From Prorocentrum cordatum (Eukaryota), in the NCBI GenBank assembly GCA_963575745.1, contig CAUYUJ010000015.1:248001-312000 (forward strand): a DNA stretch of 64,000 nucleotides. The letters run 5' to 3'. The notes beneath the pieces were generated by a model that saw only the letters and a program-made list of their open reading frames with translations, ran no database searches and was not told where the DNA came from. A program made the position numbers and the translations under genes. Numbering within the stretch: the stretch's first letter is position 1; the number at the start of each line of letters is the position of its first letter. This document shows, piece after piece, positions 1 to 52,591 of the stretch.

Positions 1-190
1 TTGGGAGAGCTCCCGGGCCTTCTCTTGGGTTGGGCGCAGGCCCCTGGTCTTCCCCCTCTCGTGAGGGGCGCAGGCCTGGTCGCCACCTCTTGGGGTCCCG
101 CGCAGTCTCCGTCCTGTGCGCGCTCGCACCGGCAGCTCGCCGAGTTCGGGCGCCCAAGCTGTCTCGCGCCGCGCGGCACCGCTCTTCGCG

Positions 191-1745
191 ATGGGCGACC
201 TCGGCAGTTTTCTTGGCGCCTTGGACGGCGCGTCGGCGCACGAGGCCGGTTGGCTCGAAGCCACGGTGACCGCGCTCAAGGGCCAAGGTGTGGTGACGAT
301 CGCCGATTTAGAGGGCGCGGCATTCGAGGGTTTCTCTTTTGCCGACAAGGAGCTCGACGCCGCGCAGAAGCGCCTCGTGCGCGCGGGGATCGCCGCGGCG
401 AGCACGCCGGCGCCGGTGGCTGGGGGCTCGGCGGCGGCCGCCCCTCCAGCGCCCTCGGCGGCGGAGAACGCGGCCGCCCTCTTGGCCGCGCTCAAGACGG
501 GCACCAGCGAGGCGCAAGCGATCTCGACGCGATCTCGGGCTCGCGTGGCCCCGCGCGGCGCGTTCGCAGGAAAAGCCGGCCCGCGTACTCTTGGGCCCTC
601 TCCTCGGCAAGGCGTCGCTGGCCAACCTCCCGCAAGAGTTCTGGCCCAGGCGCGCTCGCGCGCGCGCGCGCTGGTTCTCGCATCTGGTCCCGTGCGCCGG
701 TAGCTCCGACATGCTTGACGCGTTGAACGCGGAAGTCTTGAAGCGGCAGAAGAAGGAATCCAGCGAGGAAGCGCGCGTCTTCCTGTACTCGGACATCCGC
801 AAGTGGGTGCCCGAGTGGGCCCGCTCGGGCCCTCGCGATTTCGAAGAGGAGGCTGACGGATCGTCCGGCGCCAGCAAGGACATTCGTGACCTCGCCAAGG
901 CTCGTGCCGCGCGCGCGTTGCCTGGCCCGCGCGCGGGCGCTCGCCCCGCAGGAAGTGGCGGCGGTGAAGAAAGGGCCCGAGAAGAAGGCCTACTTAACCC
1001 TCTGCCAGTGGCAACTGGCTTGGAACCGGCGCCACCTGCCCGTCGCGCGCCCCCCCCGCGCGCCTGCCTGTTATCGCGCCGCGCGCGGCAGGTACATGGT
1101 CGCGCTGGTCGCCACGGGCCAGCTCACGTGGGCTGAGGTGCAGGCGCATCGCGACAACTGCTTGATGGTGGCGGTTCAGGCTGCGCGCGCGCGATTTCTC
1201 GTCGCTCTCTGTTCGCCGCGCGTTGCCGCGCAGGCGGCGGCCTCGAAGCGCCGCGTGCACCTCGGTATCGTGTACGACGAGGAGGCGCGGAAGGCGCGCC
1301 CCTGCGTTCATGCTTGCGCGGCGCCCTGCTTCTGTGCCGGCGCGCGGCAGCTATGGGCCGAGCAGCTACGCTCGGGGGACCCAGATTTCAAGCTGGGAAA
1401 GACGATCCTGCGGGTCGACCCGCGCGCCCTACAGCTGGCGCGGGATGCTTGCGACAAAGAAGACGGCGCCACCCACGCGACGGCGAGCGTCGCGCCGCGC
1501 GGATTCGCTTCTGCCACCTTTCTCCGCCGTTTCCGCGCGCGCAGGCACCGGCGGCCCGCGCTCCCGAGAAGGCGCGCGGGGCGGGCGGCGCCAGCCAGCC
1601 GTGGCGCGCCGCGCAGAGCTGGAGCAGCGGCTCCTGGGGCAGCGATTGGCCGAAGGGCCAGAAGCGCGAGCGCTCGTGGGGCAGCGATTGGAAGAAAAAG
1701 GACACGAGGAAGGCACGGACGCCGCCGCGCCCGGCGCAGCGCTGA
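191..1745 (+). CDS. Gag-like ORF1 of the YR retrotransposon, spliced (introns 512-569, 650-703, 900-951, 1029-1091, 1180-1233, 1294-1350, 1483-1544; possibly 1572-1616)
   Basis: ATG 191; removing the GC..AG introns joins MGDLGSFLG...GTSE|EKPARV...WPS|SDMLDALN...DLAK|EVAAV...WNR|YMVALV...AVQ|AAASK...GIVYDEEARK|LWAEQ...to TGA 1743-1745. Gag assignment is positional inference. Confidence 0.7.
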
Positions 1746-1896
1746 GCGCCGCCCTGGCAGGGCGCGCGCGAGCCCCCGTAGGGGTGGAGCCCCTTCAGCC
1801 GTCAGAACGGCTCGCGCGCAAAAGCCTGCCTCCGCCCGCGCCGGGTCGGGGCCGCGACCCGGGCGCGCCCGATAGTTCTACGCTTTGTCGCTAAAA

Positions 1897-4649
1897 ATGG
1901 CCCCGTGCGCCGTGCGCAGGACCCCCACTCGCGTGCTGGGACATGCCGCGTGCGCTGTTGCCGCGGAGGCCGCTTCGCTTTCCGCGCCGCGCTGCGAGTG
2001 CCCGGCTTGGCCGCGGCCAGCCTGGGCGGGGCGCGCGGGGGAGTTCCGCGGGGCAGCGTGCGTTCCGAGGGCGCTTTTCGCTACGCTTTGGCGCCTTGTC
2101 CACGTCCGCGGTTTGCAATCTTGTGCAATGCCTGCCGTGCCGGTGCCGCCCCCGCCGCCCGCATCCGGCGCGCGAAAGCGGGCGGCGCCTGGGGCTGCAT
2201 GCGTCGTCGCCAAATCTCGCAAGGCGCGCTTTCCCGGCTCTCGGTCGCGCGTGAGCCAGCGGCGCGCGCCAGGTGATGCCAGCGCCGCCAGCGCCACCAG
2301 GGCCGCAATTCAGGAGCGATTGGTCTCGGCGTTGCAGCGACAGCGCGTGGCGCGACATCTGCGTCGCGGCCGGCGGCTGTAGCGGCGGCGACGCGGAGAA
2401 ACTTACCTTTCTGGCAAGGGCGCTGGACGGCGACCCCGCGCTCTGGGGCAAGCGGCGGCCCGCCGCGGCCTCGGCTTTGCCGCCCGCGGCCGCTGAGGCA
2501 GTGCGGTGGGCCGCGCAGACCGCCCCCGCCGACGTGGTGGCTTTCCGCGAGGGCGAACTCGCGGCGCTTCGCGAAAGGGATCGGGCTCTCCGGGCCAGTG
2601 GCGCCGTGGAAGAATAGTTCCGGGGGGTGGACCCCGCCATGCGGCGCGTCGCGCAGCACGTGAACGGGCCTCTCTGCGCAGAGATCGCGGAGCGCATTGC
2701 CTTCTGCGACCCAGGCTGCGTGGAATTCTTCAGGTCGGGGGCGCCCCTCGTCGGCGAGCTCCCGCGGTCGGGCCACGGCAGCCCAGAGGTGTTCCCTCCC
2801 CGTCTGGGCATCGCGGAGCTGCTCGGCAACGCCGAGTCGACAAATCGCGACATTTCCTGTGGCCTCCGCGACGGCGCGCACGGCGACGCCATCCTCCGCA
2901 AGACACGGGACGAGGCCGAGCTGGGGCGCATCAGTTGCCCGGTGCCGCTCCGCGACGTGTGCCTGGACGGGGCCGTCATCGCTCCGAGGTTTGCGGTTGA
3001 GCAGCTCCGTGAAGACGGGTCCTCGAAACTCCGGTTGGTCGACGACATGACCAAGGCTAGGATTAACGAGGTGACGCGGCCTCAGGAGCGGCTCCACCAC
3101 GATGCCGTGGACACGCTTTTCGAAGCAGCTCGCATCTTCCAGGAAGTTGCGGGGCGGGCACCCGCCCTCTAGAAGGCAGACGTCGACGCTGCCTTTCGTC
3201 GCGTGCCCATTCGCGCTGAGCACCGCCGGTTCGCTTGGATCGTGTTCAGCGCCGCCGGGCAGGTCTGGGCGGCGCAGCACGCGGCAGCGCCCTTCGGGGC
3301 CACGTCGTCGGTGCACAGCTGGGCGCGAGTGGGTGCCTTCATCGCGGAGGCGGCGCGCGTACTCTTGCGGATCGCCGCGCTGCGATACGTGGATGATTAT
3401 TTTGGGCCGGATCACCCCGAAGTGGTGGAGCACGCAGCAGCGCAGCTGGCGGAGCTAATTCAGCTGATGCTCGGCCCAGGCGCGGTGGCGCCGGACAAGA
3501 TCGCCTGGGGGTCCCCGCTGGTCATCCTCGGCCTCGAAATCAAGGCGGGGCGGCCTTGGCGCGACGCGCCGGCCGGCCGGCTGCGCGCATCGCCAGGTGT
3601 TGCCACGCGCGTTCTGCGCGCGTCCCGCACCCGCGAAGACCGCCAAGTGGCAGCGTGTCATCGGCGAGGCGCTCGCGACGCGCGCCCTCGCGCCAGGCGG
3701 CTCGCGCGTCCCCCCCACTGTGTCGGGACCTTGCGTTCGCTGTGCAGGCGCATCGTCCAAGCTGGCCGGGGGCTTGGCCTGGGCAGCGTCGCATCTCTTC
3801 CGCCGCCTGGGGCGCGCCCTCCTCAGGCGCGGCGCTGCCCCCGCGCGCCCGGGGGGGCGGGGCGCCGCGCTTCGTGCTCGCAGGCCGTTGCACGCGCAAT
3901 CGCATCGCGGGGCATCGAAGGCCCATGAGCCGTTGATGCTTGCCCTGCAGTGGTGGCGCGAGGTCTTGGCCATGGACTTGTGCCAAGCGCGGCCGTGGGC
4001 CGACAAGGCGCGGCCTCGCGCAACTCTCTTCGCGGACGCGTCGGGCCAACCACCGTGCGTGGCCGCGGTGCTCGTCACCGCCACGGGCATCCGTTTCACT
4101 TCCATGGTCGCCCCGGATTCCTTGATGGCGTCGTTCCAGCGTCGCCGGGACAACCAGATTCAGGGGCTGGAGCTCCTGTCTATCGCGCTGGGCATGTGCA
4201 CCTTTGCAGGCATTGCTTTCGCGTGCGACTGCCCGCGCCGGCGGGCAGGTCCGGCCCCTCGTCTTCGCTGCGCTCAGGGGAAGTGCAAGGTTGCGACTTG
4301 CATATTTACAGCGACAATACCGGCGCGGAGTCTTGCCTGCGGAAGGGCGCCGCGAAATCCTTCGACCATTCGTGCATCGTCCACTCCATGTGGAGGCGCG
4401 CGGTGGAGCTCGACGTTGACCTCGCGGTTTTCCGCGTGCCCACGGCTGAGAATCTGGCCGATTTGCCTTCTCGGCGCGCCCGTGCGCGCCGCGCGGTGCT
4501 GCGGGCTGGCCGCGGGCGCAGCGTGTCGCAGGGGGGGCGACGAACTCCTGCTACGCATCGGCGCGGTGCGCACGCGCCCGTGGCTCGACGAAGAATTCTG
4601 GCACGCGGATGCCTGGGGCGCTCTCTCTGTGGCCCGCCTCTTCGGCTAA
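1897..4649 (+). pseudogene. pol: Reverse transcriptase-RNase H, spliced (introns 2224-2272, 3545-3596, 3697-3747, 3827-3883, 4210-4277, 4474-4531); in-frame TAG at 2615 and 3170
   Basis: RT motifs KLRLVDD, KADVDAAFRRVP, PFG, YVDD; RNase H motifs FADAS, GLEL, YSDN, NLADLPSR. Intron removal gives SKLAGGLAWA...GRALLR|PLH and restores frame. Start codon uncertain. Confidence 0.88.
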
Positions 4650-4842
4650 ACCGCGCGCCATGTCGCGCCCGGGTGCCATCTTGTGCGTCGGGGCGTCGCG
4701 ATACTTAAGTTTGGGCGCGGCAAAGCGTTCGGCGCGCCGCCGCGCTTGTCATCCTAGGGCCCCGCGTTTTGTCGCAAGCGGAGTGCACGCGGCCAGTGCC
4801 TCAGGCGCGTCGCTCGCATTGTCAGGCGTGCCGCGCGGCATC

Positions 4843-6407
4843 ATGTCGTTATTCCTTGAATTGTGTTCTTTGCGCCCGACAGCGCCCAGGACGGCCGTCG
4901 CCTGGGCTGCTGATTTCCTGGCTGAGAACGGCTTCGCACGAGCCTGCGAGCTCGCCAGTGCAGACGCCGCAGACCTGGAAGGTTGGCCGGTCACCGCGCA
5001 GGCCAATGTCGAAGTCCTGCACGAATTATTCAGAGCCGCGAAGATTGCTGCGCGCCGAGGCTCGGCTGCGCGAGGGTTTTTGGCGCGCGCGGCCCCCCCC
5101 CCCCGCCGCGCGTGCGCCTCGCAGGCGCGCCCGTCGCCGTGGGCTCGGCAGTTGGAGGGCGCGCGCCCGCCCGCAGCCGGTCGCCGGCGAGACGCGCGGC
5201 GCCGAGCGCCCCGGGGTCACCCCCTGGACCGCCACAGGCGCGCGTCATCGGCCCCGCGTGCTTGCGCATGCCCGCGCGCCGTGGCTCGCGAGGCGCCCGC
5301 CCCGAGCGTCCTCGACCAGCTGGGCGCGCCGGTCGCGCTGCCAATAACGCGCGGGCCCCGGGCGGCGCTCGCCGAGGCCGCTGCTCGCCTCCGCAGTCCG
5401 GCGGACGCGGCCCGCTGGCGGGAGGAGGAACGCGTTCGCGCTATGCTGCAACCATGCGCACGGTCGCTCCCAAGCGTGAGAAGCGGCCTCAAATGCTGGG
5501 AGGCCTACTGCATCAGAGTGTTGAAATACCCATGCATGCAGCTCCCGCCAGCCTGCGCGGACCTGGTCGCCTGGAGCGCCCTCTTTCGCTGCGGGGAGAC
5601 GTACGCAAATTACTGCAGCTACGTTGAGATCGGCTGCCTCCTGACTGGGGTCTGCGTCGCCGTGTTCGACCGCCCCGAGGTCAGGCGTGCGCGCGCCGCC
5701 GTCCGGGCGCGGGCCGATTGGACTCCGCGCCCGCGCTTGTTTCATCCGTAAGAGCGCGGTCGCCGCGCTGGTCGAGTTGGGCGCGCGCCGCCCCGAGTGG
5801 CTCCGCGCGTCGATGCTTTTCCTTTTCGCCTACGCGTTCTTGTTGCGTGTTCCCAGCAAGGCGTTGCCGGCCGTGCGCGTGGCCGATGCCGGCGACGCGC
5901 CGCCCTTTCAAGCGGCGCTAGTGCTGGGCAGATCGGAGCTCACGCTGCTGCTGCGGCGGCGGAAGAACCGGCCGCAGGGCAGTCGCCTGTCGCGGAAGTG
6001 CTGGTGCTCATCGTGCCGCGCCACGTGCCCCGTGCACACCCTGGGCCCCTGGGTGGCGCGTTGCGGGCTGGGCCGCGGGCTCTTCGGAGGCATCTCGGCG
6101 GCTGCTGCGCTGCGGACCCTGCGCGAGATGCTCGCTGCCCTCGGTGTCCAGGGGGCGAGCCTGTTTCGGTTGCATGACCTCCGCAGGGGCCACGCCAAGG
6201 ACCTGCAGGAGGCTGGCGCGACGCTGGCCGAGATTCTCGCGGCCGGGGAGTGGCGGTCCTGCGCTTTCATGGCGTATCTCGACCGTGACGATCTGGAAAG
6301 GGACGCGGTCGTGGAGGCGGGGCCACGCGCCCTCCGCCCGCGCCGCGGCGCGCTGCTCGCGCCAGGCGCACATGCTGGAGTCGGATTCGGACGAGGGTGC
6401 CTGCTAG
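4843..6407 (+). pseudogene. Tyrosine recombinase, spliced (introns 5060-5124, 5238-5292, 6317-6365); +1 frameshift near 5741
   Basis: Catalytic-type motifs FLLRVPS, RRRKN, CPVH, HDLRRG, GEWRS, AFMAYL; last intron joins AVVE|AHMLESDSDEGAC*. Confidence 0.88.
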
Positions 6408-6556
6408 GCGCCGGCGGCCAGCGCCGCCACGTTTCGCTTCTGTGCGTGGGCGGGTGCGCGCGACGGCGCCCGTGCTCTGCCCCCGCGCGTTCGGCAGCGG
6501 GTGGGCGCGCGTTGCCGGCCCGTGTCGCCTGCGTGCCGTGTGGCATTGGGTCTGCA

Positions 6557-7242
6557 CGCAGGCGTGGCGCGAGGCCGCCCAAGCGGCGGTGCGTCGGGCC
6601 TGGGCCCGTCGCAGCCGCCCGCGGGGGGCAGCCTCGCGCCGCGCCGCTCCCACCGACGGCGGCAGCAGGCGGGGTCGAGGCCCTGCGCGCGCGGCTCGAT
6701 TTGTGGTAGGCCCACGGCGGCAAGTCCGCTCGCAGACGCGGACGTTCACCGTTGTGGGCGGGCACAAATCGGCCACGGTTGCGCGTAGGTCGCGCGCGCG
6801 GCAGTGCGACGCGACCGCGGCCTCGCTGCGCAGGCGCGGGCCATCGCGCCGTCGCGCGCCAGGGTTGCGCGTCGCGGGGGGGGGGTCGCTGCCCCGCGGC
6901 GCGTGCGCTTCGCAGGTGATTTGCTAGCGCCGGGGTTGCGTCGCCGCGGGGGGGGGTCGCTGCCCCCGCGGCGCGTGCGCTTCGCAGGCGATTTGCATTT
7001 GGAGGAGGCGCCGCGCGCGCGCCCCGCGCGCGCGCGCGGCGGGTGCCTCCCTGGCGCGCGTTCTTTCTCCCACCCTCCGCCCTGTCTGCTGCGCGCAGGC
7101 GTGGCGCGAGGCCGCCCAAGCGGCGGTGCGTCGGGCCTGGGCCCGTCGCAGCCGCCCGCGGGGGGCAGCCTCGCGCCGCGCCGCTCCCACCGACGGCGGC
7201 AGCAGGCGGGGTCGAGGCCCTGCACGCGCGGCTCGATTTGTG
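6557..7242 (+). repeat. 149-bp direct repeat pair (6557-6705; 7094-7242) with a ~65-bp internal tandem duplication (about 6862-6998) between them
   Basis: Near-identical copies cgcaggcgtggcgcgagg...gctcgatttgtg read directly. Confidence 0.92.
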
Positions 7243-7639
7243 CGCGCCTGAAAGTGCGCGTTGCGAAGGATGCGAACCCCTTTGGAGCTCAACCGGGGCC
7301 TCGCCCGCCCTGCGCCGCCACGGCGCAGCAGAGGCCGTGGTTTGATCCGAGGTGGCCGCGGATCCGATGGCGACATGAATACGCACCACGATGCACGCAG
7401 CGCGCGACGATAGATCGCAACAGAAGGGTTGCGCAACATGCTTTGCAACCGCTCGCAAACCAGCAAGAGCGAGTGCTCCGCTGACTAGCAGGAGCGAAGG
7501 CCCCCCTGCCGAGGGAACCTAACTCGCGCGAGTTGTTATCCGCATCCCCCACACACACACACGCACGCACACACGCGCACGCGCACGCCCCACACCACCG
7601 CGCGCACACGCGCGCGCGCACACACTCCCCGCCGCTCCC

Positions 7640-8950
7640 CCCGTACAGGCGGCGCCTGAGTCTGGGCGTCGATCCACGCCGGCGCGGCGGCCAGCGCCCC
7701 TGCGCGACTCTGATAGCGGCCCCAGCGGATGCGCTTGTCGGACCGCCCCGCCACGGCTCTGAAATTGCTCTTGTCTGGCAGCGCGCACTTGTGCCCATTC
7801 CTGTAAGTGGTGCTGCCAGACATCGGCGGTTTGGGCATCGCCATGGGCTTCGCCGCGGCAGGCTCCCCCATGGCCCGGTGGCCCTTCATGGGGGGGGCGG
7901 CCCTCCGTCTTTTTCATGGCTGGCGACGTTGCCCCTTCGGCGGCCCCGCCGTCGCCGCTGGCCTCGGCGCCCTCGACGCCCTCGGCCGCCGCCGGGCGCT
8001 TCCTCTCCGCGGCGGCCGCCTCGGCTTTGTCGGCGAGAAGCGCGCGGAGCTTGCCCTCCTCGTCGCTGAGCTCTGCGGCGCTGATCTCCTTGGGCACGGC
8101 CGCCGGTGGCTTCGCCATTTCGCGAGGTGGCTCCTCGCGAGGTGGGAGTTTGACCCCTGGGGGCCCCAGCTCCTCGCGCGTCGCTGTCGACGCAGGCGGC
8201 CTTGCAGATGAACCTAAAATCGCGTTGGCGAACAGCGCCGCCGCCAACTGCCCGCCGAACGCGTTCTGCATGATCGCGAGCTGGCCGCCAGCCGCAGGGC
8301 CTGTAGGCGCGGCCGCGCTTGCAGGACATGGCGCGAGTGCCGATGGCGAAGTCTTCGCCTGGAGCCCGCGGGAGTTCTTCCGCGCGAACTCGGGCCCGTC
8401 GGCGCTGATGTCCCCCATTGCTGGGGGTTCGGCGCCGCGCGCCGCGCCCTACCGTGGCCCCGCGCTCAGCTGGTCGACCTGGTCGTTCACCAGGTCGCCC
8501 TGCAGCCGCGGGCGGCCCGCTGCCTGGCCGCGATGCTCGAGCTGAGCGCCTTGGCATTCTGGAGCAGCTGGCGCCGCGCCTCTGACGTCGCTGGCCGCCG
8601 CGCGGCCCTCGCTGACCGCGCTCAGCGCGCGCGTGGCACTGAGCTTGGCACGGTTGGCAACCAAGCGTATACACGCCTTCTCCGACAGGTTGCCGCTTTT
8701 CAATGCTGCGATATCCGTCGCAGTGGAGATCTTGGAGGCAATGCTTAATTACCTCTTGCAAGCGTTTCCCTGCTCTCTTCGCCACCACGATGCCAGTCTC
8801 GTTGCCGACGGCCTGGCACAAGCACAAGATTTGCTCTGATGTCCATTGGTATAATGCGTTGTTCCGGATCGCGTTGATCAAGTGCGTTGCTTCACCCGTG
8901 GACATCGCGCGGACGTCGTTGATCGCGAGGAGCAGTGCGGCGCATTGATA
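7640..8950 (-). pseudogene. Decayed hypothetical protein gene with Ala/Lys-rich (KRPAAA) C-terminal region
   Basis: Protein-like segments in shifting frames (MSTGEATHLINAIRNN; KSGNLSEKACIRLVANRA; KSNFRAVAGRSDKRIRWG); no family recognised. Confidence 0.4.
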
Positions 8951-11659
8951 TTTTGCCAGAGAGGTGGCGCCGAGCCCGCGTGCGACCTAAGTCAATGCCC
9001 ATTCGTGCGCGTTGCTCAACTCAGCGCAGAGGTTTGGCACCGTCGCCATTAGGCGATGGATGTCGTCGCGAGGAACCCCGCGATACTTCGAGGGCCACAA
9101 TGGCCACGGACGCGCCGTGAGCCGCAATTTTTTGCACGTGCCAAAAAGGCACAAGGCTACGCTCGCAACACCATTCGAAACCAATCTTTCATATTTGGAA
9201 TACTTCTCTCAAACATCATATGGTGTCGGGTCCTCGTTTCGAATATACATCGTTCCTCCTGCACCTCCTCGTCGCATTCCGCTCATGCGCGCCATTGTCT
9301 GCAATCGTCGGCGTGCCCCTCATGCGCCAGCGTTGTTGATTTGTCGTCGGCTCAACACATGCGCAGACCAGACTGCAACCCAGCATGACGCTGGATGGAT
9401 TGCACGTGGTGGACGCAAAGGAGCGAGGGACGCGCTATCAAAACCACCCGATCGGACACTTGCAAAACGGTTACCCCTCGTGCGCGCCAGCGCACGGCTC
9501 GGCATTCTGCGCAGAACAGCGCGCTGAAATCGCAGCGGCATGCCACTCGGTCGCATCGCCGCGATCAAGGAGGCGGTTCATCCAGGCCTCCTTGGCCGCA
9601 AGGAACCGCTCGCACTTCTCGTTCACTTGCGGGGCCGCGGGGCTGCTCGACAGACGACGCCGGGGGGCCCGCGCAACGCGTAGCTTCAACAGTCCTGGGG
9701 TGGGGAGGACAAGTGTTAACCGTGGTGGGGTGCGAAGCAATGCATTGCTGATGCCCTCCTTGTTGTCGGCTTTCTTCAGAGTCGGACGGGCCCCTGTCGC
9801 GACCTTCTTCGCAGCCCTGACCCGTAGTTTCTTTCCCCTCCAGCATCTCGCGCCGCTCTTCTTGGATATCGGCCATCGCTTGAGTTCCCATCGCCCTCTC
9901 CTTCACGCTCCTCGGCATAGGCGGCCCGGGCAGCGCGCGCGCGACGTCGGGCCTGCGGCGGCTGGCGGCCGGGCCCGCGATCGCCCGCCATGGCGCGATC
10001 GCCGGAACCCCGCCCCCCGCCCCCGACCCCAAGGGCGAATGCAGGCGACGACGATGTGGGCGAGGAGGAAAAGGCGACGCGCGAGGGGCGGCGGCGGCGG
10101 GGGGGAAATTGGGGGGGGGGCGCGCGGGCGGCGGGGCAGGGGGTGGCGGAGGAGAGATGGCCACGACGAGGATGGGGGCGAGAAGAACGATGAGGGTGAG
10201 CACGGGGCGGGAGCGAACGGATCAGGATAATGATACTAAGGAATAGACGAATAGGGTGATGAGGTGGAAGGGAATGACTCGGCCGCGCGCGCATATGGCC
10301 GCGCGGCCGAGTTGGCGCGAGGGGTCGCGCAGCTTGCGCGCCACGGCGCGCGCATCCGCGAACGCGCCCGCCATGTCAGCGGACTCGACGGCGCTGCGCG
10401 CCAAGCGCCGCACGGAGGACACCGCGCACTTCAAACGCGCAGTTGACCACCTTGATTAGGCGCGAGAAGTACTGCCTGAAGATGCCCCAGGCCATGGGCC
10501 GCAATGCAGCCATGCCACGCGTGCTCTCTTGCAACTGGATGCACGCCATTCGCGCCGATATACGTGCACGCGCTGTCATGGTTTATGCAATGGCCAATGC
10601 ATGTATGTGCATGTTCGTTTGCGCCGGTACGCACACATGCAATGACCTACTGCTTGCAGTATGCGGTGGTGTCGTTTCGATGTGCTGGCACGCATAGCAT
10701 TAGAATGCTAGCACGTGGTCATGCTTAACATTTGCGCACTCACGCCATGTCCGAATCTCAGAAGCGCCCACCCGAGAGGCAGATGCCGCATACAAGAAGC
10801 TGGAGCGGGCCACGAAGAAGGCGGAAACCGCCGAAAAAGCGTTCGTGGCGAGCTTGGACGAGGCCAAGGTGGGGCGCACGCTCGGGCGACCGCTCGCCTC
10901 GTCACGGCAGGCGCCCTCACTCGGGCGCGGGGGCGCAAGGCCTTGGGCGTCGGGGAGCGCGCGCCGTGAGTTGGCGGAGAGTGGGGCGCAGTTTGATGCG
11001 TGATTGCTGGGGACATGCGTGCAAGCGCATATGCGAGCATCCATCAGAACGCTTGCCGCGTCGCGCGTGAACGGACATCCTGCGCATCAGGGGGTGCATG
11101 GAGATCCTGCGCCTGCACCGCCGCGCCCGTCGCCGTCGGCAGCCATCGCCGCCGCTGCCGCCGTCGCAGGCCGACCTCCCTCGTCGCCGTCGCCGCCGTC
11201 GTCGTCACCCACTCGTCGTCGCCGCAGCTGTCGTCGTCGGCGCCGCCGCCGTCGTCGTCGCCCAATCGTGGTCGTCGCAGTCGTCGCCGTCGCAATCGGC
11301 GCCGCGATCGCCGCCCCGCCCCCCCAGCACGCTCGGGGCGGGCCGCCGAACGAGGGCGACGAAGACGAGGGCGACGGGGGCGGCGGCGCGACGACGAAGG
11401 AAACAAAGGGGGGCCGGGCGCCCCCCCTCCGCCCCCCCTCGACGAGTGCGCGCGAATGCGCGGGCGCTGGCACGATTGCAAAGTCGTTCGGGCACAACGT
11501 CTGCGGGTCGAGGCAACGACCGATCGCCGACGACGCCAAGGCCCGGGAGCGACGATCCACAGGCAGCGCTTGCCGACAAACGATAATGACGATGTTTCCA
11601 GACGCCCGACACATCGCCCAACGCGCGACATTTATAAACCATATTGCATACCACCACAT

Positions 11660-15479: not shown

Positions 15480-15581
15480 GTCCCGATGATGATGATGATG
15501 ATGACGATGTTGATGATGATGATGGCCATGGTGGTGATGATGATGGTATCCCGATGATGAAGATTATGTTGATGATGCTGT

Positions 15582-15619
<38 letters not shown>

Positions 15620-16390
15620 GTGTCCCGATGTTGACGGCGATGATGTTGATGATCTAGATGATGTTAATGGTGATGAGATGATGATGGTGATGATGACGAT
15701 GAGGGTGCCCCGATGGTGATTATGAGGTTGAGTATGATGATGTTGCTGGTGATGGTGATGATGATGATGGTGTCCAGATGGTGATGACGGTGTTGATGAT
15801 GATGACGATGATGGTGCCCCGATGACGCTTATGCTGAGGTTGCTGAAGATGATCTTGATGTGGTGATGATGATGATGTTGATGGTGGTGGCCCGGTGATG
15901 ATGATGCTGATGTTGATGATGATGGTGTCCCGAGGATGATGATTGTGGTGATGATATCATGACGATGATGTTGGTGCCCCGATGATGGTGATGTTGGTGA
16001 TGATGATGATGTTGCTGATGGTGGCGACGATGGTGTCCCGATGATGATGTTGATGATGTGGTTCATGATGATGATGAGTTGATGATGATGATGGTTCTGA
16101 TCGTGGTAGTCCGATGATGGTGATGATGGTGTCCCGACGATGATGATGATGATGATGTTGATGATGGAGATGCTGACGATGATGATGTTCCGATGATGGT
16201 GATGATGGGGGTCATGATGATGATGATGGCCATGGTGGTGACGGTGATGGTGTCCCGATGATGATGTTAATGATGCTGATGTTGCTGATGATGATGGTGC
16301 CCCGGTGACGATGATAATATTGATGGTCTTGATGATGATGATATGATGGGATGATGGTGATGGTGATGAAGATGATGATGACCGTGTCCC

Positions 16391-16423
<33 letters not shown>

Positions 16424-17040
16424 AGGGTTGATGCTGATGCTGTTGATGCTGGTGTTGATGATGATGGAACCCCGATGCTGGTGATAATATTGATGATGCT
16501 GATGATGACGATGGTGGTGTTCGATGATGGTAATGATGATGATGCTGATGTTGGGGATGATGATAAGGTGGTGATGATTTTGATGCTGGTGGCCCGATGA
16601 GGATGATGTTGATGTTGATGATGATGGTGTCCCGATGATGATGATGATGATGGTGATGCTGGTGGTAACGATGATGATGGTGTCCCGATGATGATGATGT
16701 TGGTGATGATGGTGCTGCTGCTGATGATGATGGTGTCCCGATGATGTTGATGACGTGGATGACGATGATGTCGATGATGATAATGGCGTTGTTTGTGAGA
16801 TCGATTGTGATATCGATTGTGAGATCGATAGTGAAACCGAATGTGGGATAGATTGTGAGGTCGATAGTGAGATCGACAGCGAGATCGATTGTGAGATCGA
16901 TAATGAATCATATCGGTTGTGGGATTGATCGAACGAAAAAGATCGAATGGTATCGTGTGTGGGGTCGACCGAGTGAGATCGATCGAACGAGACCGATAGT
17001 GATATCGATCGTAAGATCGATATTGAGACCGATCGAGTGA
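15480..17040. repeat. Degenerate (GAT)n punctuated by GGTGTCCCG, followed by GATCGA-rich repeat
   Basis: Directly visible. Confidence 0.9.
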
Positions 17041-18574: not shown

Positions 18575-18601
18575 CGCCGTCATCATCATCACCATCATCA
18601 C

Positions 18602-18636
<35 letters not shown>

Positions 18637-18714
18637 GCATCATCATCATCGTCATCGTCATCGTCATCGTCATCATCGTCATCATGGTCATCATCAGCAG
18701 CAGAGCATCACCAC

Positions 18715-18768
<54 letters not shown>

Positions 18769-19330
18769 AGCGTTATCATCATCGGAAGCATCTTCATTAT
18801 CATCATCATCAAGAGCATCATCATCAGCATCATCGTCATCATCATTAGCATCATCGTTATCACCATTATTAGCCGAATCAGCAGCATCATACTCATTCAC
18901 CATCATCATGATCATGTTCATCATCTTCGTCTTCATCATCATCAGCAGCATCAGCATTACCATCATCACCGTCATCATCACCTTCATCCTCATCTGTATC
19001 CTCATCCTCATCCTCATCAGCAGCATCAGCAGTGTCAGCATCATCAACATCATCACCATCATCGTCATTATTCATGCCCCTCAGTCCTCCTCGTCCCTCC
19101 CCTCCTGGTTGGCATCCGCTTCCCTCGTTCTCTTCCGCCTGCCTTTCCTCCTCTCGCCCCTTGCTCCAGTGGTCGCCCCCTCTCCCTCCCTCCCCCTCCC
19201 TCCCTCCAAGGGGTCCTCACTCCTCCCTCCTCGTTCTTCCTCCTCCTCTCTCCTCCTCCTCCTCCTCCTCCTCCTCCTCCTCCTCCTCCTCCTCCTCCTC
19301 CTCCTCCTCCTCCTCCGCCTCCTCCTGCAA
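18575..19330. repeat. (CAT)n then (CCT)n microsatellites
   Basis: Directly visible. Confidence 0.92.
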
Positions 19331-22188: not shown

Positions 22189-22220
<32 letters not shown>

Positions 22221-22755
22221 GAGGAGGAGGAGGAGGAGGAGGAGGAGGAAGACGGGGGGGAGGGGGAACGAGACGGAGGGGGAGGGAGATGAGGATGTTG
22301 AAAGAGGTGGGAGGATGTGGAGGAGGAGGAGGAGGAGGAGGAGGAGGAGGAGGAGGAGAGGAGGAGGACGACGAGGGAGGGGGGGAAGGGAAAGGAGGAC
22401 GAAGGGAGGAAGAAGAGGAAGGAGGAGGAGGGAGGAATATGAGGAGGAGGACGAGGACAATGACGAGAAGGAAGAGAGGAGGAGGAGGAGGAGGAGGAGG
22501 AGGAGGAGGAGGAGGAGGAGGAGGAGAGGAGGAGGAGGAGGAGGAGGAGGGAGGAGGAGGAGGAGGAGGAGGAGGAGGAGGAGGAGGAGGAGGAGGAGGA
22601 GGAGGAGGAGAGGAGGAGGAGGAGGAGGAGGAGGAGAGGAGAGGAGGAGGAGGAGGAGGAGAGGAGGAGGAGGGGAGAGGAGGAGGAGGGAGGAGGAGGA
22701 GGAGAGGAGGAGGAGGAGGAGGAGGAGAGGGGGGACGACGACGACGACGACGACA
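22188..22755. repeat. (GGA)n purine microsatellite inside the transposon
   Basis: Directly visible. Confidence 0.95.
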
Positions 22756-28215: not shown

Positions 28216-28308
<93 letters not shown>

Positions 28309-41400: not shown

Positions 41401-43250
41401 GCTGAGGCTGAGGCGGATGCAGGCTGAGGCTGAGGCAGGCTGAGGCTGAGGCCGAGGCTGAAGGCAGACTGAGGCTGAGGCTGAAGCAGGCTGAGGCTGA
41501 GGCTGAGGCAGGCTGAGGCTGAGGCTGAGGCAGGCTGATGCTGAGGCAGGCTGAGGCTGAGGCTGAGGCTGATGCAGGCTGAGGATGAGGCAGGCTGAGG
41601 CTGAGGCCGAAGCCGACGGCAGACTAAGGCTGAGGCAGAAGCAGGCTGAGGCAGAGGCAGGCTGAGGCTGAGGCAGAGGCAGGCTGATGCTGAGACAGGC
41701 TGATGCTGAGACTGAGGCTGATGCATGGTTAGGCTGAGGCAGGCTGAGGCTGAGGCCGAGGCTGAAGGCAGACTGATGCTGAGGCTAAAGCAGGCTGAGG
41801 CTGAAGCTGAGGCTGAGGCAGGCTGAGGCTGAGGCAGGCTGAGGCTGAAGGCAGGCTGAGGCGGATGCTGAGGCAGGCTGAGGCTGTGACTGTGATTGTG
41901 ACTGCCGTTGCCACTGCGACTGTCATCGCGAATGCGACTACGACTGCGAGAGCAGCAGAATTCTACAACTGGATTATCATTTGAATCTTAAGGGGAATGC
42001 TTCCAGATATGCTCCTACACATCGCTGTTAGGTTGCTTTGCCGGGATAATTTCAGGCTGCCTCCTCGCATCCCCACAGCAGCTCACCATGACCGCCAGCG
42101 GCGTCTCCTTGAACGGCTCCGCCACATGTCGCCTAGCTCCTCGCCGTCTCCTTTGCCACCAGCGTCTGCGGGTCCATGGGCGCCGCATTGAGCGACACCC
42201 TCAGCCTCAGCGTGACCACCGCCCCTCTGGGCAGCTTACGCTCGGCCCTGCGTGCTTGCAGGCGTAGCCTGCGTAGCTTGTGCAGCCTGCCGTTGGGGAG
42301 GCCCGTCACCCCCACACCCCACAGCGCCGTCGTCGTGGGACTGCCCCACTGCAGGTGCCCAGCTCTGGTGGCTCCTGCCGCTCGCAGCCTCTGCACCCTG
42401 TTCGCCGCCTTCGCTGTCCTTGCGAGGCGCCTGTCCTGCTCCCCGCAGCGCCTCAACCTGCCGTCCGTTGCGGCGCCTCCGAGGTTGTGGGCTCCTTCCG
42501 CCCGCTCTAGCACCAGGCACTCCTCCGCCAAAGCTGCTGCCATCGCCACCGCCGTGGACGCGTCGCTCGCCGTGAGCTCGGTCTTCTGCCTGGAGACGAC
42601 CAGGTCCTTCGCCTCAAGCAGCTCAACCATCCTCACCGTGGCTGCTGCGAGCTGCCGCTTCACCTGCTCCTTCTCGCCCGCCGCCTGCACCATCACCTCG
42701 CCGACCAAGCTCGGGTATCGAACCAACCGGCACTCCCTGGCCAGCAGGCCGAGCGTCCTGTGCAGCAGCACTTCTGCCAGGCCCGTCACGCAGGAGCACG
42801 CCGCCGCCGGCGTGCCGTTCGCCTCCAGCCTCTCGCGGACCGTCTGCCCCCACCTGGCCCTCCGCCGCAGCCTGCAGCGAGTGCACGGCAGCCGCAGGAG
42901 CCCCTGGGGGAGAGCGCACTCTCACGCCGCTCTGCGCCTCAGCGCCTCGTGGGGCGCGTGTTCGTTCTACAAGTAGAGCTGCTCATCAAGACCACAACCA
43001 AGTGCGAGATGATCTTCACGACCATGCGGTCGGCTCTGATCCCCGTGCTAGAACTGGGCCAGGGCCTGGAGTCCCGCCCCATCCGCGAAGCCGACCGTCC
43101 TCGCGTGGCAGGCCACCGCGTTGGAGACCATCCCCACCCTGGCGCACGGCGCGCGCGCCCCTCCCCCAAAGCGGCCCTGGCCTGGCAACTCCGACTCCCG
43201 GCGCTGCATCAGCGGCTGGCGGATGCGGCTCCACAGCCCGCCATGGATTT
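38456..43250 (-). mobile_element. Decayed non-LTR (LINE-like) retrotransposon: RT/thumb remnant (42060-43050) and RNase H (38960-39430), interrupted at 40021-42050
   Basis: RNase H FVDGS..RRAGWAVV..HSDCQ..KVKGH..ADAFVKKGA; RT-region remnants HNLG and LWGVGVTGL; catalytic DD motif decayed. Confidence 0.75.
40021..42050. mobile_element. Non-autonomous Helentron/Helitron2-like element, copy 1, with 73-bp-family tandem repeat and ~1.45-kb (GCTGAG)n array (40418-41885)
   Basis: Starts TTTTTACCTTACAGCGA, ends TCGCTGTTAGGTTGCTTTGCCGGGATAAT; same ends as 61456-62969; removal rejoins LINE frame RRQPE-SQWRRAKSP with no duplication. Confidence 0.65.

Positions 43251-48377: not shown

Positions 48378-52591
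<4,214 letters not shown>

What the first reader, a model, noticed from the sequence alone, without database searches (positions are those of the whole stretch)
191..6407. Retrotransposon with 16 tiny GC-AG introns across all three ORFs
Seen: 16 intervals of 49-68 nt that all begin GC (mostly AG|GC) and end AG. Ten are not multiples of 3, and removing them restores frame and rebuilds conserved motifs (LGLEIK|V, FA-G|EVQ..YSDN, LPSR|GG, VVE|AHM). Known: elements that copy via spliced RNA normally lose introns, and intron retention is the exception (e.g. Penelope-like elements). Inference: this family reverse-transcribes an unspliced RNA while expressing proteins from spliced mRNAs, or it moves as DNA using its recombinase.
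Basis: partly seen in the sequence, partly recalled or inferred. Interest (0 to 1): 0.85.

Follow-up and report, generated by a model that had tools for sequence, protein, structure and literature searches.

The report
Intron-riddled tyrosine-recombinase retrotransposon in a dinoflagellate
This is a dead copy of a dinoflagellate jumping gene that copies itself through RNA, yet its three genes are split by about fifteen tiny introns. Related elements in the sea carry hundreds more, which is odd because copying through RNA normally erases introns.

Summary
Window 1-7242 (+) is one dead copy (two private TAG codons, one 1-nt insertion) of a multi-copy, Ngaro-like tyrosine-recombinase retrotransposon. 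The host resembles the dinoflagellate Prorocentrum cordatum. The element has a Gag-like ORF1, an RT-RNase H ORF2, a Cre-like recombinase ORF3 and 3' direct repeats.

Fifteen intervals of 49-68 nt, all GC...AG, behave as spliceosomal introns. Removing them makes each protein collinear with uninterrupted relatives, nine restore the frame, and length changes among copies fall inside them. A sixteenth (2224-2272) has only weak support. Other genomic copies carry the same introns.

The same thing appears on a large scale in 79 related marine metagenome contigs:
- 57 carry frame-breaking introns of about 59 nt, up to 13 in ORF2.
- 207 unique introns show AG|GY...YAG|G signals.
- Exons are under purifying selection, while introns evolve like third codon positions.
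- Intron positions are inherited along element lineages but turn over fast.

So this clade needs splicing to make protein, yet passes its introns to new copies. Most likely unspliced RNA is the template and the proteins act in trans. No RNA data could be reached, so splicing and the template are inferred. I found no published description.

The parts
1..190 (+). 5' leader of the element. The 5' terminal repeat lies upstream of the window start.
   Evidence: There is no ORF here. Local alignment of 1-200 against 6401-7600 scores no better than shuffles, so the A1 repeat is not inside the window.
191..1745 (+). ORF1, a Gag-like gene in 8 exons (385 aa after splicing), stop TGA 1743-1745.
   Evidence: Spliced translation. 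It is homologous to the uninterrupted ORF1 of loci L034, L012, L008 and L020. The ORF1 of relatives L034 and L012 ends in CCHC zinc knuckles (Pfam zf-CCHC E 1.4e-5 and 7.8e-4). The window's tail is W-rich, like L008 and L011.
512..569 (+). Intron 1 (58 nt, GC-AG, shifts the frame).
   Evidence: Both flanking exons are homologous to parts of a single ORF in L034 and L012. Its DNA is seen as read-through in another genomic copy, P0006.
650..703 (+). Intron 2 (54 nt, GC-AG, in frame).
   Evidence: It is absent from L034 and L012, which are collinear there. L002 and L011 have extra segments exactly here. Other copies are 2 or 4 nt shorter here (table 4).
900..951 (+). Intron 3 (52 nt, GC-AG, shifts the frame).
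   Evidence: Restores the frame. Relatives are collinear across DLAK|EVAA. L002 and L011 have extra segments at the same site.
1029..1091 (+). Intron 4 (63 nt, GC-AG, in frame).
   Evidence: Absent from the six ORF1 relatives at AWNR|YMVAL.
1180..1233 (+). Intron 5 (54 nt, GC-AG, in frame).
   Evidence: Absent from L002, L034, L012, L008 and L020 at VQ|AAASK.
1294..1350 (+). Intron 6 (57 nt, GC-AG, in frame).
   Evidence: Absent from L002, L034, L012, L008 and L020 at EEARK|LWAEQ.
1483..1544 (+). Intron 7 (62 nt, GC-AG, shifts the frame).
   Evidence: Joins the body to the W-rich tail, which in L008 and L011 lies in the same ORF. This is the least certain of the ORF1 set, because the tail is of low complexity.
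2224..2272 (+). Possible 16th intron (49 nt, GC-AG). It would join an upstream exon (ATG 2128) to ORF2.
   Evidence: Support is weak: the N-terminus of L002's ORF2 is roughly collinear with the joined reading. However, close relatives P0001-P0004 start at the Met that corresponds to 2276. Untested.
2276..4649 (+). ORF2, reverse transcriptase plus RNase H, in 6 exons, stop TAA 4647-4649.
   Evidence: Contains the YVDD and SDN motifs. Pfam RVT_1 matches 10 of 14 relatives, best E 5.6e-5. The model of relative P0007 (pLDDT 76.9) matches the RT-RNase H of CaMV, HERV-K, MoMLV, Ty3 and HIV-1 at E 2e-12 to 1e-9.
2615..2617 (+). In-frame TAG, private to this copy.
   Evidence: Relatives have W here. 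All four runs read G at 2616.
3170..3172 (+). In-frame TAG, private to this copy.
   Evidence: Relatives read ALWKAD. All four runs read G at 3171.
3545..3596 (+). Intron (52 nt, GC-AG, phase 0, shifts the frame).
   Evidence: Found by the independent aligner. No gap in 11 homologs. Read through in P0001-P0005.
3697..3747 (+). Intron (51 nt, GC-AG, phase 1, in frame).
   Evidence: A 1-nt insertion variant is present in run X5. The same column and phase are used in L036, L039, L040 and L053.
3827..3883 (+). Intron (57 nt, GC-AG, phase 2, in frame).
   Evidence: Read through in P0001-P0004.
4210..4277 (+). Intron (68 nt, GC-AG, phase 1, shifts the frame).
   Evidence: Rebuilds FAG|EVQ..YSDN. Read through in P0004, P0005, P0006 and P0118.
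4474..4531 (+). Intron (58 nt, GC-AG, phase 2, shifts the frame).
   Evidence: Rebuilds LPSR|GG. The same column and phase are used in at least 8 distant relatives.
4843..6407 (+). ORF3, a tyrosine recombinase, in 4 exons, stop TAG 6405-6407.
   Evidence: The N-terminus MSLFLEL is shared with P0033, P0035, P0038, P0040 and P0061. The model of relative P0035 (pLDDT 81) matches Cre (E 6.5e-6, TM 0.64), XerA, XerH, Tn1549 and lambda integrases. The R..K..HxxR..W..Y residues are conserved.
5060..5124 (+). Intron (65 nt, GC-AG, shifts the frame).
   Evidence: With the next intron it keeps the 38-aa middle exon in the frame seen in sister subfamily P0061, where the two segments are 66 and 54 nt. Length variants at 5076 and 5093 occur among copies.
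5238..5292 (+). Intron (55 nt, GC-AG, shifts the frame).
   Evidence: As for 5060-5124. It lies in a variable linker, so collinearity with distant homologs cannot be judged.
5740..5742 (+). 1-nt insertion in a T run (frameshift), private to this copy.
   Evidence: Runs X1, X2 and X5 lack one base here. The aligner calls a frameshift, not an intron. All 13 homologs have the RRARAAVRAR..RPRLFIRK segment.
6317..6365 (+). Last intron (49 nt, GC-AG, phase 0, shifts the frame), probably a recent gain.
   Evidence: Found by the independent aligner. Ten homologs read VVEAH..ESD straight through. It is precisely absent in sister subfamily P0061, P0053 and P0029. It is read through in P0027, P0028, P0030 and P0097. 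It is unique among 28 loci with ORF3.
6552..6705 (+). 3' direct repeat, first copy (B1-like).
   Evidence: 154 nt, 99% identical to 7089-7242.
6856..6996 (+). 72-nt tandem duplication inside the stretch between the two direct repeats.
   Evidence: Tandem Repeats Finder: period 72, 2.0 copies. Also seen.
7089..7242 (+). 3' direct repeat, second copy (B2-like), the probable 3' end of the element.
   Evidence: Relative L034 shows the full A1 ... B1-A2-B2 layout.

Best explanation
Window 1-7242 holds a dead copy of a multi-copy, Ngaro-like (DIRS-order) tyrosine-recombinase retrotransposon. The host resembles the dinoflagellate Prorocentrum cordatum.

Shown:
- The three genes (Gag-like, RT-RNase H, Cre-like recombinase) are interrupted by 15, perhaps 16, minimal introns of 49-68 nt that carry the host's own splice signals (AG|GC...CAG|G).
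- Without their removal no full-length protein can be read.
- Dispersed copies and sister subfamilies carry the same introns.
- A whole clade of related elements in marine metagenomes carries 0-13 such introns per gene. Their exons are under purifying selection and their introns evolve neutrally.

Inferred mechanism:
- The host spliceosome removes the introns from the share of transcripts that become mRNAs.
- In a dinoflagellate the three separate ORFs are probably also released as separate mRNAs by spliced-leader trans-splicing.
- The Gag-like protein, RT-RNase H and recombinase made from those mRNAs act in trans on full-length, unspliced transcripts.
- Only the unspliced transcripts carry both terminal repeats and therefore serve as the template for cDNA.
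- The recombinase then integrates the cDNA.
- Introns are therefore copied into every new insertion. New introns arise at AG|G sites in active copies at a high rate, by an unknown route.
For: It is a retroelement:
- The RT-RNase H fold matches solved RTs at E 2e-12.
- The recombinase fold matches Cre at E 6.5e-6.
- CCHC knuckles occur in the ORF1 of relatives.
- The window has 3' direct repeats, and L034 shows A1...B1-A2-B2.

The introns are real:
- Exact recovery by an aligner that did not use the window's protein.
- Collinearity with uninterrupted homologs.
- 9 of 15 restore the frame.
- Of 9 indel places among copies, 5 lie in introns, which make up 14% of the stretch.

The signals are the host's: P. 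cordatum donors are GC 51.4%, GT 24.7%, GA 23.8%, and the acceptor is AGG in 79.7% (PMC10666404, passages).

It is multi-copy, and copies share the introns:
- P0005, P0006 and P0030 lie on contigs of 987, 184 and 856 kb.
- The four runs gave 12, 75, 262 and 20 contig pieces.

In the wider clade:
- 57 of 79 loci have at least one frame-breaking intron.
- There are 207 unique ones, with a median of 59 nt.
- Signals the aligner did not impose: G at -1 in 88%, G at +5 in 65%, C at -3 in 78%, G after the acceptor in 86%.

Selection, over 12 close pairs:
- Divergence is 0.012, 0.008 and 0.039 at codon positions 1, 2 and 3, and 0.037 in introns.
- 21 indels fall in introns against 4 in exons.

Inheritance:
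- Intron positions need 111 parsimony steps against 141.5 +/- 3.0 when shuffled.
- Sharing rises with protein identity, 0.03 to 0.14 to 0.44.

Action in trans is known for DIRS-1 (PMC7192593, passages).
Against: - No spliced RNA was seen. No run on record as RNA holds the element, and the four runs laid are contigs of guessed type with no joint across any intron.
- In Dictyostelium DIRS-1 an inserted reporter intron is removed from new copies (PMC7192593). Spliced RNA can therefore be a template in this order, and retention here needs a special reason.
- The recombinase plus direct repeats could in principle move the DNA itself.
- The 5' repeat of this copy is outside the window, so the terminal layout is incomplete.
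- The hosts of the metagenome loci are unknown. Some of those contigs could be RNA-derived.
- Spliced-leader-like motifs inside some relatives suggest that processed RNAs are sometimes copied.
Confidence: 0.6

Rival explanations
1. The family spreads as DNA. The tyrosine recombinase excises a circle by recombination between the direct repeats and reinserts it, Crypton-like, so the introns are never exposed to loss. The RT is kept for another step or is a relic.
For: A Cre-like recombinase is present and conserved. Direct repeats flank the 3' end. Contigs that close on themselves or repeat in tandem exist (L030, L012). Intron retention would then need no special explanation.
Against: RT-RNase H is under purifying selection in intron-bearing lineages, and its catalytic residues are invariant in 14 relatives. 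The gene order and repeats are those of retrotransposons of the DIRS order. Self-closing contigs are what an assembler produces from A..B-A-B repeats, so they do not show circles.
Confidence: 0.2
2. Intron-bearing copies are a dead end. They multiply only by host duplication, while rare intron-free master copies do the retrotransposing.
For: The window copy is dead. Relatives with an intron-free ORF2 exist: 16 of 63 long loci. The host genome is rich in dispersed duplicates (PMC10666404).
Against: Intron-bearing lineages diverge under protein-level selection with frames kept (L036 against L040: 0.052, 0.037 and 0.215 at codon positions 1, 2 and 3). Introns are shared by copies on different contigs. 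Loci with an intron-free ORF2 have introns in ORF1 or ORF3 (L006, L001, L002, L011). No contig lacking the introns was found in four runs, which is weak evidence.
Confidence: 0.1
3. A domesticated host gene cluster derived from a retroelement, which has introns like any host gene.
For: The intron density of 3.2 per kb is close to the host mean of 3.5 per kb (PMC10666404).
Against: There are many diverged copies. This copy has private stops, a frameshift, and 19 non-synonymous against 9 synonymous private changes among the 40 of 84 differences that the tool listed. All three genes plus the terminal repeats are kept across the clade.
Confidence: 0.04
4. These are not introns. They are chance GC..AG intervals in a decayed element full of frameshifts.
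For: The sequence is 72% G+C, so GC and AG dinucleotides abound. With decoy dinucleotides my aligner still finds boundaries for most interruptions.
Against: The interruptions are real insertions relative to homologs, of a very narrow length class (5-95%: 52-67 nt). They carry extended consensus that the aligner did not impose. The score falls and frameshifts rise four- to five-fold with decoys. Exons between them are conserved and free of stops.
Confidence: 0.02

Closest known systems
[quoted passage not shown]
   Same: A Gag-like ORF, then an RT-RNase H ORF, then a separate tyrosine-recombinase ORF. Split direct repeats (seen whole in relative L034, in part in the window). No methyltransferase, protease or DDE integrase.
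   Different: 15-16 spliceosomal introns in the coding regions here, and up to 13 in one gene of relatives. I did not test phylogenetic placement among Ngaro, PAT, DIRS1 and VIPER.
SymbioDIRS-Dnmt3 of Symbiodinium (PMC5890265, passages read)
   Same: A dinoflagellate host. DIRS-type A-coding-B-A-B repeats. A pol ORF with RT and a separate tyrosine-recombinase ORF.
   Different: Those carry a cytosine methyltransferase and were described as intronless, being annotated with intronless gene models. The element here has no DNMT and many introns.
Penelope-like elements (PMC8557442 passages; PMC4209133 abstract)
   Same: Retroelements said to be highly unusual, or exceptional, because they keep spliceosomal introns after retrotransposition.
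   Different: PLEs have a telomerase-like RT and a GIY-YIG endonuclease, usually one intron (often in the 5' UTR), and ORFs that are mostly uninterrupted. Here an LTR-retroelement-like RT-RNase H plus a tyrosine recombinase carries many introns inside every gene.
Retroviruses and LTR retrotransposons with spliced subgenomic mRNAs (for example Cer1, PMC10309623, abstract only)
   Same: A division of labour between unspliced genomic RNA, which is the template, and spliced mRNA.
   Different: In those elements Gag and Pol are translated from the unspliced RNA. Here the unspliced RNA cannot encode any of the three full-length proteins.
Cryptons (tyrosine-recombinase DNA transposons; PMC3212892, search listing only; that they contain introns is recalled)
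   Same: A tyrosine recombinase, with introns tolerated because movement is by DNA.
   Different: Cryptons have no RT or RNase H. Here both are present and conserved.
Introner elements of dinoflagellates (PMC12130899 passages; PMC10666404 passages)
   Same: The same hosts, the same AG|G context, and ongoing intron gain.
   Different: Introners are families of similar mobile sequences with repeats at their ends. The 397 introns compared here are not similar to each other at different positions and show no boundary repeat beyond the splice consensus.

Membership tests
DIRS order (tyrosine-recombinase retrotransposons) | Reverse transcriptase domain | tested here: met
   YVDD is invariant. RVT_1 matches 10 of 14 relatives, best E 5.6e-5, all below Pfam's cut-off, and the window piece at E 0.012. 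The model of P0007 matches solved RTs at E 2e-12.
DIRS order (tyrosine-recombinase retrotransposons) | RNase H domain after the RT | tested here: met
   The Foldseek alignments to HIV-1 p66 and HERV-K RT span about 600 columns, including RNase H. D, E and D(N) residues are invariant. RT_RNaseH matches 3 of 14 relatives weakly.
DIRS order (tyrosine-recombinase retrotransposons) | A tyrosine recombinase instead of a DDE integrase, and no protease | tested here: met
   The P0035 model matches Cre, Xer and lambda Int. The profile hits the Cre catalytic end at E 0.005. No integrase or protease family appears in the Pfam scans.
DIRS order (tyrosine-recombinase retrotransposons) | Terminal repeats: split direct repeats, or inverted repeats plus an internal complementary region | tested here: inconclusive
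   In the window only the 154-nt B1/B2 pair is seen. The 5' repeat lies outside the window. Relative L034 shows A1 130-356, B1 7232-7277, A2 7338-7564 and B2 7592-7637.
Ngaro group | No methyltransferase domain, with genes in the order gag, RT-RNase H, recombinase | tested here: met
   ORF2 ends about 40 residues after the RNase H motif. No further ORF or Pfam family is found.
Ngaro group | Placement inside the Ngaro clade in an RT or recombinase tree | not tested
Spliceosomal introns of dinoflagellate type | A G[C/T/A] donor and an AG acceptor followed by G | tested here: met
   In the window, 15 of 15 are GC..AG and 13 of 15 are followed by G. In relatives the donors are GT 159, GC 40 and GA 8, with G at +1 in 86%. 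Host usage is given in PMC10666404.
Spliceosomal introns of dinoflagellate type | Removal restores the frame and collinearity with intron-free homologs | tested here: met
Spliceosomal introns of dinoflagellate type | Spliced junctions present in RNA | not testable with these tools
   No RNA holder was listed. The contigs laid show no joints. Database proteins of this family either read through the introns or come from copies without them.
Penelope-like elements | A GIY-YIG endonuclease and a telomerase-like RT | tested here: not met
   There is no such Pfam match. The best structural matches are LTR-retroelement, retroviral and caulimovirus RTs.
Cryptons | A tyrosine recombinase without RT | tested here: not met
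   RT-RNase H is present and conserved.
Introner elements | Many introns derived from one mobile sequence family, with terminal repeats or target-site duplications | tested here: not met
   Of 138 similar intron pairs, 129 are at the same position and 9 at different positions (15-21 nt only). The boundary repeat length is 3.18 against 3.16 expected.

The most novel reading that the evidence does not exclude
These elements gain their introns by reverse splicing. Excised host introns are spliced back into the element's own full-length RNA at AG|G sites, and the element's reverse transcriptase then copies that RNA into a new insertion. A retrotransposon would thus be the long-sought natural substrate in which reverse-splicing intron gain needs no extra step.

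This reading fits four results:
- Intron density equals that of host genes.
- Intron positions turn over fast.
- There is no introner-like sequence family.
- There is no target-site duplication.
Probability: 0.12. Interest if true: 0.95.

Novelty: new variant of a known kind. Interest (0 to 1): 0.8.

Why it matters
Copying through RNA is expected to strip introns, and retroelements that keep even one intron (Penelope-like elements) are called exceptional.

Here a whole clade of tyrosine-recombinase retrotransposons carries introns at host-gene density in all of its genes. It depends on the host spliceosome for every protein and still passes the introns on.

If confirmed by RNA data, this finding would do three things:
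- Show that a retrotransposon can keep its messenger RNA and its template RNA strictly apart.
- Give a natural system in which recent intron gains can be dated and their source traced. Examples are the 49-nt intron at 6317-6365 and the 57-nt intron of L040.
- Warn that intron-free gene models, the usual way to annotate transposons, miss or mangle such families in dinoflagellate genomes.

Tried and rejected
- **Whole genome:** none is held for this window, so copy number, flanks and intron-free copies could not be surveyed.
- **RNA evidence:** no RNA holder was listed. The four runs laid (X1, X2, X5, X9) are all contigs of guessed type and show no joint across any intron. This is neither support for nor evidence against splicing.
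- **Search for short transcript-derived proteins** with the exon 3885-4208: it gave only read-through or distant pieces.
- **Cluster look-up:** it gave no molecule types. One 61-aa member carries a transcriptome-project label and covers exon sequence only.
- **My candidate intron 5685-5754:** rejected. It is coding sequence with a 1-nt insertion in this copy.
- **The NCBI gene models' single 291-nt intron 5002-5292:** rejected in favour of two short introns, because the middle exon is conserved in frame in P0061.
- **Decoy splice dinucleotides:** the aligner still calls about 320 interruptions, so the dinucleotide alone is a weak test. I relied instead on consensus that was not imposed.
- **Introner origin:** no similarity among introns of one element beyond composition or among 397 introns at different positions.
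- **Target-site duplication:** none beyond AG|G.
- **5'/3' bias of intron positions:** none.
- **A1 repeat in window 1-200:** not found.
- **PDB sequence search with the RT-RNase H profile:** nothing significant. The fold search was needed.
- **Rfam on 1-9000:** nothing.
- **Spliced-leader motif in the window:** none.
- **ORF1 and ORF3 N-termini:** not alike.
- **Pfam on 12 long ORFs in the rest of the window:** nothing.
- **Earlier findings of this scan:** nothing relevant.
- **Not used:** Complex prediction and the search of protein representatives.
- **Supplements:** the supplementary repeat tables of PMC10666404 were not opened. They may list this family.

Full report
**What is in the window.**
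The first 7.2 kb of the window is 70-74% G+C. On the + strand it holds three non-overlapping genes.
- ORF1 runs from ATG 191 to TGA 1745.
- ORF2 runs from ATG 2276 (or 2128) to TAA 4649.
- ORF3 runs from ATG 4843 to TAG 6407.
- A 154-nt direct repeat follows, at 6552-6705 and 7089-7242 (99% identical).

The closest named proteins are 'unnamed protein product' entries of Prorocentrum cordatum. P0005 and P0006 are 98% identical over the part they cover, P0030 is 86% identical, and each lies on a different contig. I therefore treat the host as P. cordatum or a very close relative. No whole genome is held for the window.

**The genes.**
Single-sequence Pfam hits are weak: RVT_1 at E 0.012 and Phage_integrase at E 0.023. 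I therefore used relatives.
- *ORF2.* 14 uninterrupted homologs were aligned (A1). YVDD and the acidic RNase H residues are invariant. RVT_1 matches 10 of 14, best E 5.6e-5, and RT_RNaseH matches 3 of 14. The AlphaFold model of P0007 has pLDDT 76.9, with residues 1-123 disordered. It matches the RT or RT-RNase H of cauliflower mosaic virus, HERV-K, MoMLV, Ty3 and HIV-1 at E 2e-12 to 1e-9.
- *ORF3.* 16 homologs were aligned (A2). They keep R, K, HxxR, W and Y. The profile hits the catalytic end of Cre at E 0.005. The model of P0035 has pLDDT 81. It matches Cre over both domains (E 6.5e-6, TM 0.64 by target), then XerA, XerH, Tn1549 integrase and lambda integrase.
- *ORF1.* It has no family of its own, but in relatives L034 and L012 it ends in CCHC zinc knuckles, so it is Gag-like.

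There is no protease, DDE integrase or methyltransferase. Relative L034 shows the full split-direct-repeat layout A1 ... B1-A2-B2. In the window the 5' repeat lies beyond the left edge. This is the anatomy of Ngaro-type members of the DIRS order, as outlined in PMC7192593 (passages). I did not test tree placement.

**The introns of this copy.**
I listed all AG|GC...AG intervals and chose those needed to keep the frames open. Fifteen stand up:
- ORF1: 512-569, 650-703, 900-951, 1029-1091, 1180-1233, 1294-1350, 1483-1544.
- ORF2: 3545-3596, 3697-3747, 3827-3883, 4210-4277, 4474-4531.
- ORF3: 5060-5124, 5238-5292, 6317-6365.

All 15 start GC and end AG. 12 are preceded by AG, 13 are followed by G, and 13 have C at -3. 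Nine are not multiples of three. They contain 4.7% A against 14.5% in the exons.

The evidence is independent of the splice letters:
- (a) The spliced ORF2 aligns with 11 database homologs of 35-51% identity without a gap at the five sites.
- (b) I wrote a profile-to-DNA aligner from 15 uninterrupted proteins, leaving out the window's own. It places those five introns at exactly the same bases. A second profile places 6317-6365.
- (c) The spliced ORF1 is collinear with the uninterrupted ORF1 of L034, L012, L008 and L020 at the four in-frame introns, and it is homologous on both sides of the frame-shifting ones. L002 and L011 carry extra segments exactly at two of the window's sites.
- (d) In sister-subfamily protein P0061 the two linker segments are 66 and 54 nt instead of 65 and 55, while the exon between them keeps its reading. 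This makes sense only if both segments are removed.
- (e) Among copies seen in four sequencing runs, length changes occur at 9 places. Five of them lie in introns (657, 3730, 5076, 5093, 6330), two are intergenic, one is in an exon in one run only, and one is the window's own insertion.

My extra candidate 5685-5754 is false: all 13 homologs have a conserved segment there, three runs lack one base at 5740, and the aligner calls a frameshift.

**This copy is dead, the family is not.**
All four runs read G where the window has the A of TAG at 2616 and 3171, and relatives have W at both places. The tool listed 40 of 84 differences between the window and those runs. Of these, 19 are non-synonymous, 9 synonymous, 6 intronic and 6 intergenic. 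That is neutral decay after insertion.

Translations of intron DNA are visible in proteins from other copies. P0005 shows four introns, P0006 five and P0030 at least three, each on another contig. P0001-P0004, P0027, P0028, P0097 and P0118 show them as well. Dispersed copies therefore share the introns.

One difference stands out. The last intron is precisely absent from sister subfamily P0029, P0053 and P0061, which end VVEAHLLESDSD on contigs of up to 7.4 kb. It is also unique among 28 related loci with ORF3. It is most simply a recent gain.

**Comparison with the host.**
According to PMC10666404 (Table 2, seen as a passage), P. cordatum has these features:
- Donors are GC in 51.4% of introns, GT in 24.7% and GA in 23.8%.
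- The acceptor is AGG in 79.7%.
- Mean intron length is 4709 bp.
- There are 9.8 introns per gene, and the mean CDS is 2798 bp.

The element thus uses the host's signals, at 3.2 introns per kb against the host's 3.5. But its introns are about 80 times shorter than the host mean. Fifteen GC donors out of 15 would have probability 4.6e-5 at host frequencies. This may reflect the element's extreme G+C, or a need for weak donors. I cannot tell which.

**The wider clade.**
A scan of metagenome contigs with the ORF2 alignment returned 79 loci of 1-9 kb. tblastn showed many of them broken into pieces in alternating frames about 45-70 nt apart. The aligner made 326 intron calls, 310 of them 40-90 nt long. 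I call an intron 'hard' if its length is not a multiple of 3 or if read-through meets a stop.
- *How common.* 57 of 79 loci have at least one hard intron. Of the 63 loci that cover at least 400 profile columns, 16 have none, 47 have at least one and 25 have at least five. The maximum is 13 calls in L068 and L076, of which 10 are hard.
- *Signals.* There are 207 unique hard introns with a median of 59 nt (5-95%: 52-67) and phases 73/62/72. Donors are GT 159, GC 40 and GA 8. Features the aligner did not ask for: A at -2 in 65%, G at -1 in 88%, G at +5 in 65%, C at -3 in 78%, G after the acceptor in 86%, and a T-rich tract.
- *Control.* With decoy dinucleotides the aligner still finds about 320 interruptions, but the summed score drops from 152,946 to about 144,600 and frameshifts rise from 11 to 45-55.
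- *ORF3.* 22 of 28 loci have 1-6 introns there. This includes L006, whose ORF2 has none.
- *ORF1.* L001, L002 and L011 show interruptions there.
- *Selection.* Twelve close pairs differ by 0.012, 0.008 and 0.039 at codon positions 1, 2 and 3, and by 0.037 in introns. 21 indels fall in introns (19 not multiples of three) against 4 in exons. The interrupted genes therefore evolve as working genes.
- *Inheritance.* In a tree of 66 rows there are 79 distinct positions, 45 of them shared by at least two loci. Among 51 representatives below 85% identity, the positions need 111 parsimony steps against 141.5 +/- 3.0 after shuffling (minimum 131 of 300). Sharing rises with protein identity, 0.031, 0.137 and 0.444. 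Related rows share labels, so this shows inheritance and not more.
- *Shared and gained positions.* Two of the window's five ORF2 positions recur in distant relatives in the same phase. This is either old ancestry or repeated use of an AG|G site in a conserved codon. L040 has a precise 57-nt intron that L036 and L022 lack.
- *Origin.* Introns of different positions are not alike: 9 weak pairs against 129 at the same position, among 397 introns. Boundaries show no repeat beyond the consensus, 3.18 against 3.16. There is no 5'/3' bias.

**How it most likely works.**
Shown:
- No full-length protein can be read without removing the introns.
- The genes are nevertheless under selection.
- Copies and lineages inherit the introns.

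Inferred:
- Part of the transcripts is spliced and translated.
- The proteins act in trans, as reported for DIRS-1 (PMC7192593).
- The template for cDNA is the unspliced full-length RNA.
- One plausible reason is that only the unprocessed transcript carries both terminal repeats. Mature mRNAs in a dinoflagellate are cut into single-gene units by spliced-leader trans-splicing.

This last step is speculation. Its only hint is a spliced-leader-like motif on the + strand in non-coding parts of six relatives, 7 hits at up to 2 mismatches against 0.4 in shuffles. It occurs in both A repeats of L034, exact in A1 (about 106 nt before the ORF1 start codon) and with one mismatch in A2 (motif as printed in PMC6050394). 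The window has no such motif.

The DNA route through the recombinase remains possible; I give it about one in five. Against easy acceptance of the RNA route, a reporter intron is spliced out of new DIRS-1 copies in Dictyostelium.

**Is it known?**
Eight full-text searches found no description of DIRS, Ngaro or other tyrosine-recombinase retrotransposons with many coding-region introns.
- PMC5890265 (passages) describes dinoflagellate DIRS-type elements as intronless.
- PMC4209133 (abstract) calls them exceptional for this.

The library lacks most subscription journals, and I did not open the supplementary repeat tables of the P. cordatum paper. A prior mention cannot be excluded. Earlier notes of this scan held nothing relevant.

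**Verdict.**
In detail: 15 introns are solid and one is doubtful. The thing is a new variant of a known kind. Its interest is high because the phenomenon extends to a whole clade and gives a handle on intron gain. The missing piece is RNA.

Noticed in passing
L034:272-287 and 7480-7495; L070:3710-3725; L012:4873; L023:2691; L036:4545: A spliced-leader-like motif (the 16-nt core of the 22-nt dinoflagellate leader) lies on the + strand in non-coding parts of six related elements (7 hits at up to 2 mismatches against 0.4 in shuffles). In L034 it sits in both A repeats (exact in A1, one mismatch in A2), about 106 nt before the ORF1 start codon in A1, and is followed by GTGTGT. In L070 it forms one arm of a hairpin. 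It could be a relic of leader-capped element RNA that was reverse transcribed, or a built-in leader with a donor site.
   Followed up: partly
L012:1-9326; L030:1-141 and 7807-7947; L076:36-78 and 9037-9079: Some metagenome contigs hold the element one and a half times (period 6444 nt in L012) or close on themselves (141-nt identical ends in L030). An assembler would produce this from A..B-A-B repeats, but tandem copies or circles would look the same.
   Followed up: partly
proteins P0029, P0053, P0061 (sister subfamily, about 86% identical): This subfamily keeps the ORF2 and linker introns but lacks the last ORF3 intron precisely. It is a presence/absence difference between young subfamilies of one host.
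   Followed up: partly
protein P0089: A 61-aa piece of this element's recombinase, in the same 90%-identity cluster as P0027, is filed under a transcriptome-project label of a green alga (Pyramimonas). It looks like carry-over between cultures or libraries rather than a true host, and it hints that the element is transcribed.
   Followed up: no
window 15485-16785, 18580-19068, 22196-22727, 40418-41886, 48675-52347: The rest of the window is dominated by long, impure microsatellite-like arrays ((GAT)n, (TCA)n, (GGA)n, (GCTGAG)n, and alternating (GGCT)n and (CGA)n blocks over about 3.7 kb). Twelve long open frames there have no Pfam family.
   Followed up: partly
window 40160-40419 and 61582-62007: Two arrays of a related 73-nt unit (3.7 and 5.8 copies) lie 21 kb apart. 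The unit has an internal palindrome-like core (CCAGAACTCCATTCC..GG).
   Followed up: no
window 53839-55417: A tandem array of ten 158-nt units, built from 21-nt sub-repeats.
   Followed up: no
window 28216-28307: A run of 92 A residues, possibly the tail of a retroposed sequence.
   Followed up: no
window 6856-6996: A 72-nt tandem duplication lies inside the 3' non-coding part of the element, between the two 154-nt repeats. Each unit ends in a CGCAG|G-like acceptor motif.
   Followed up: no
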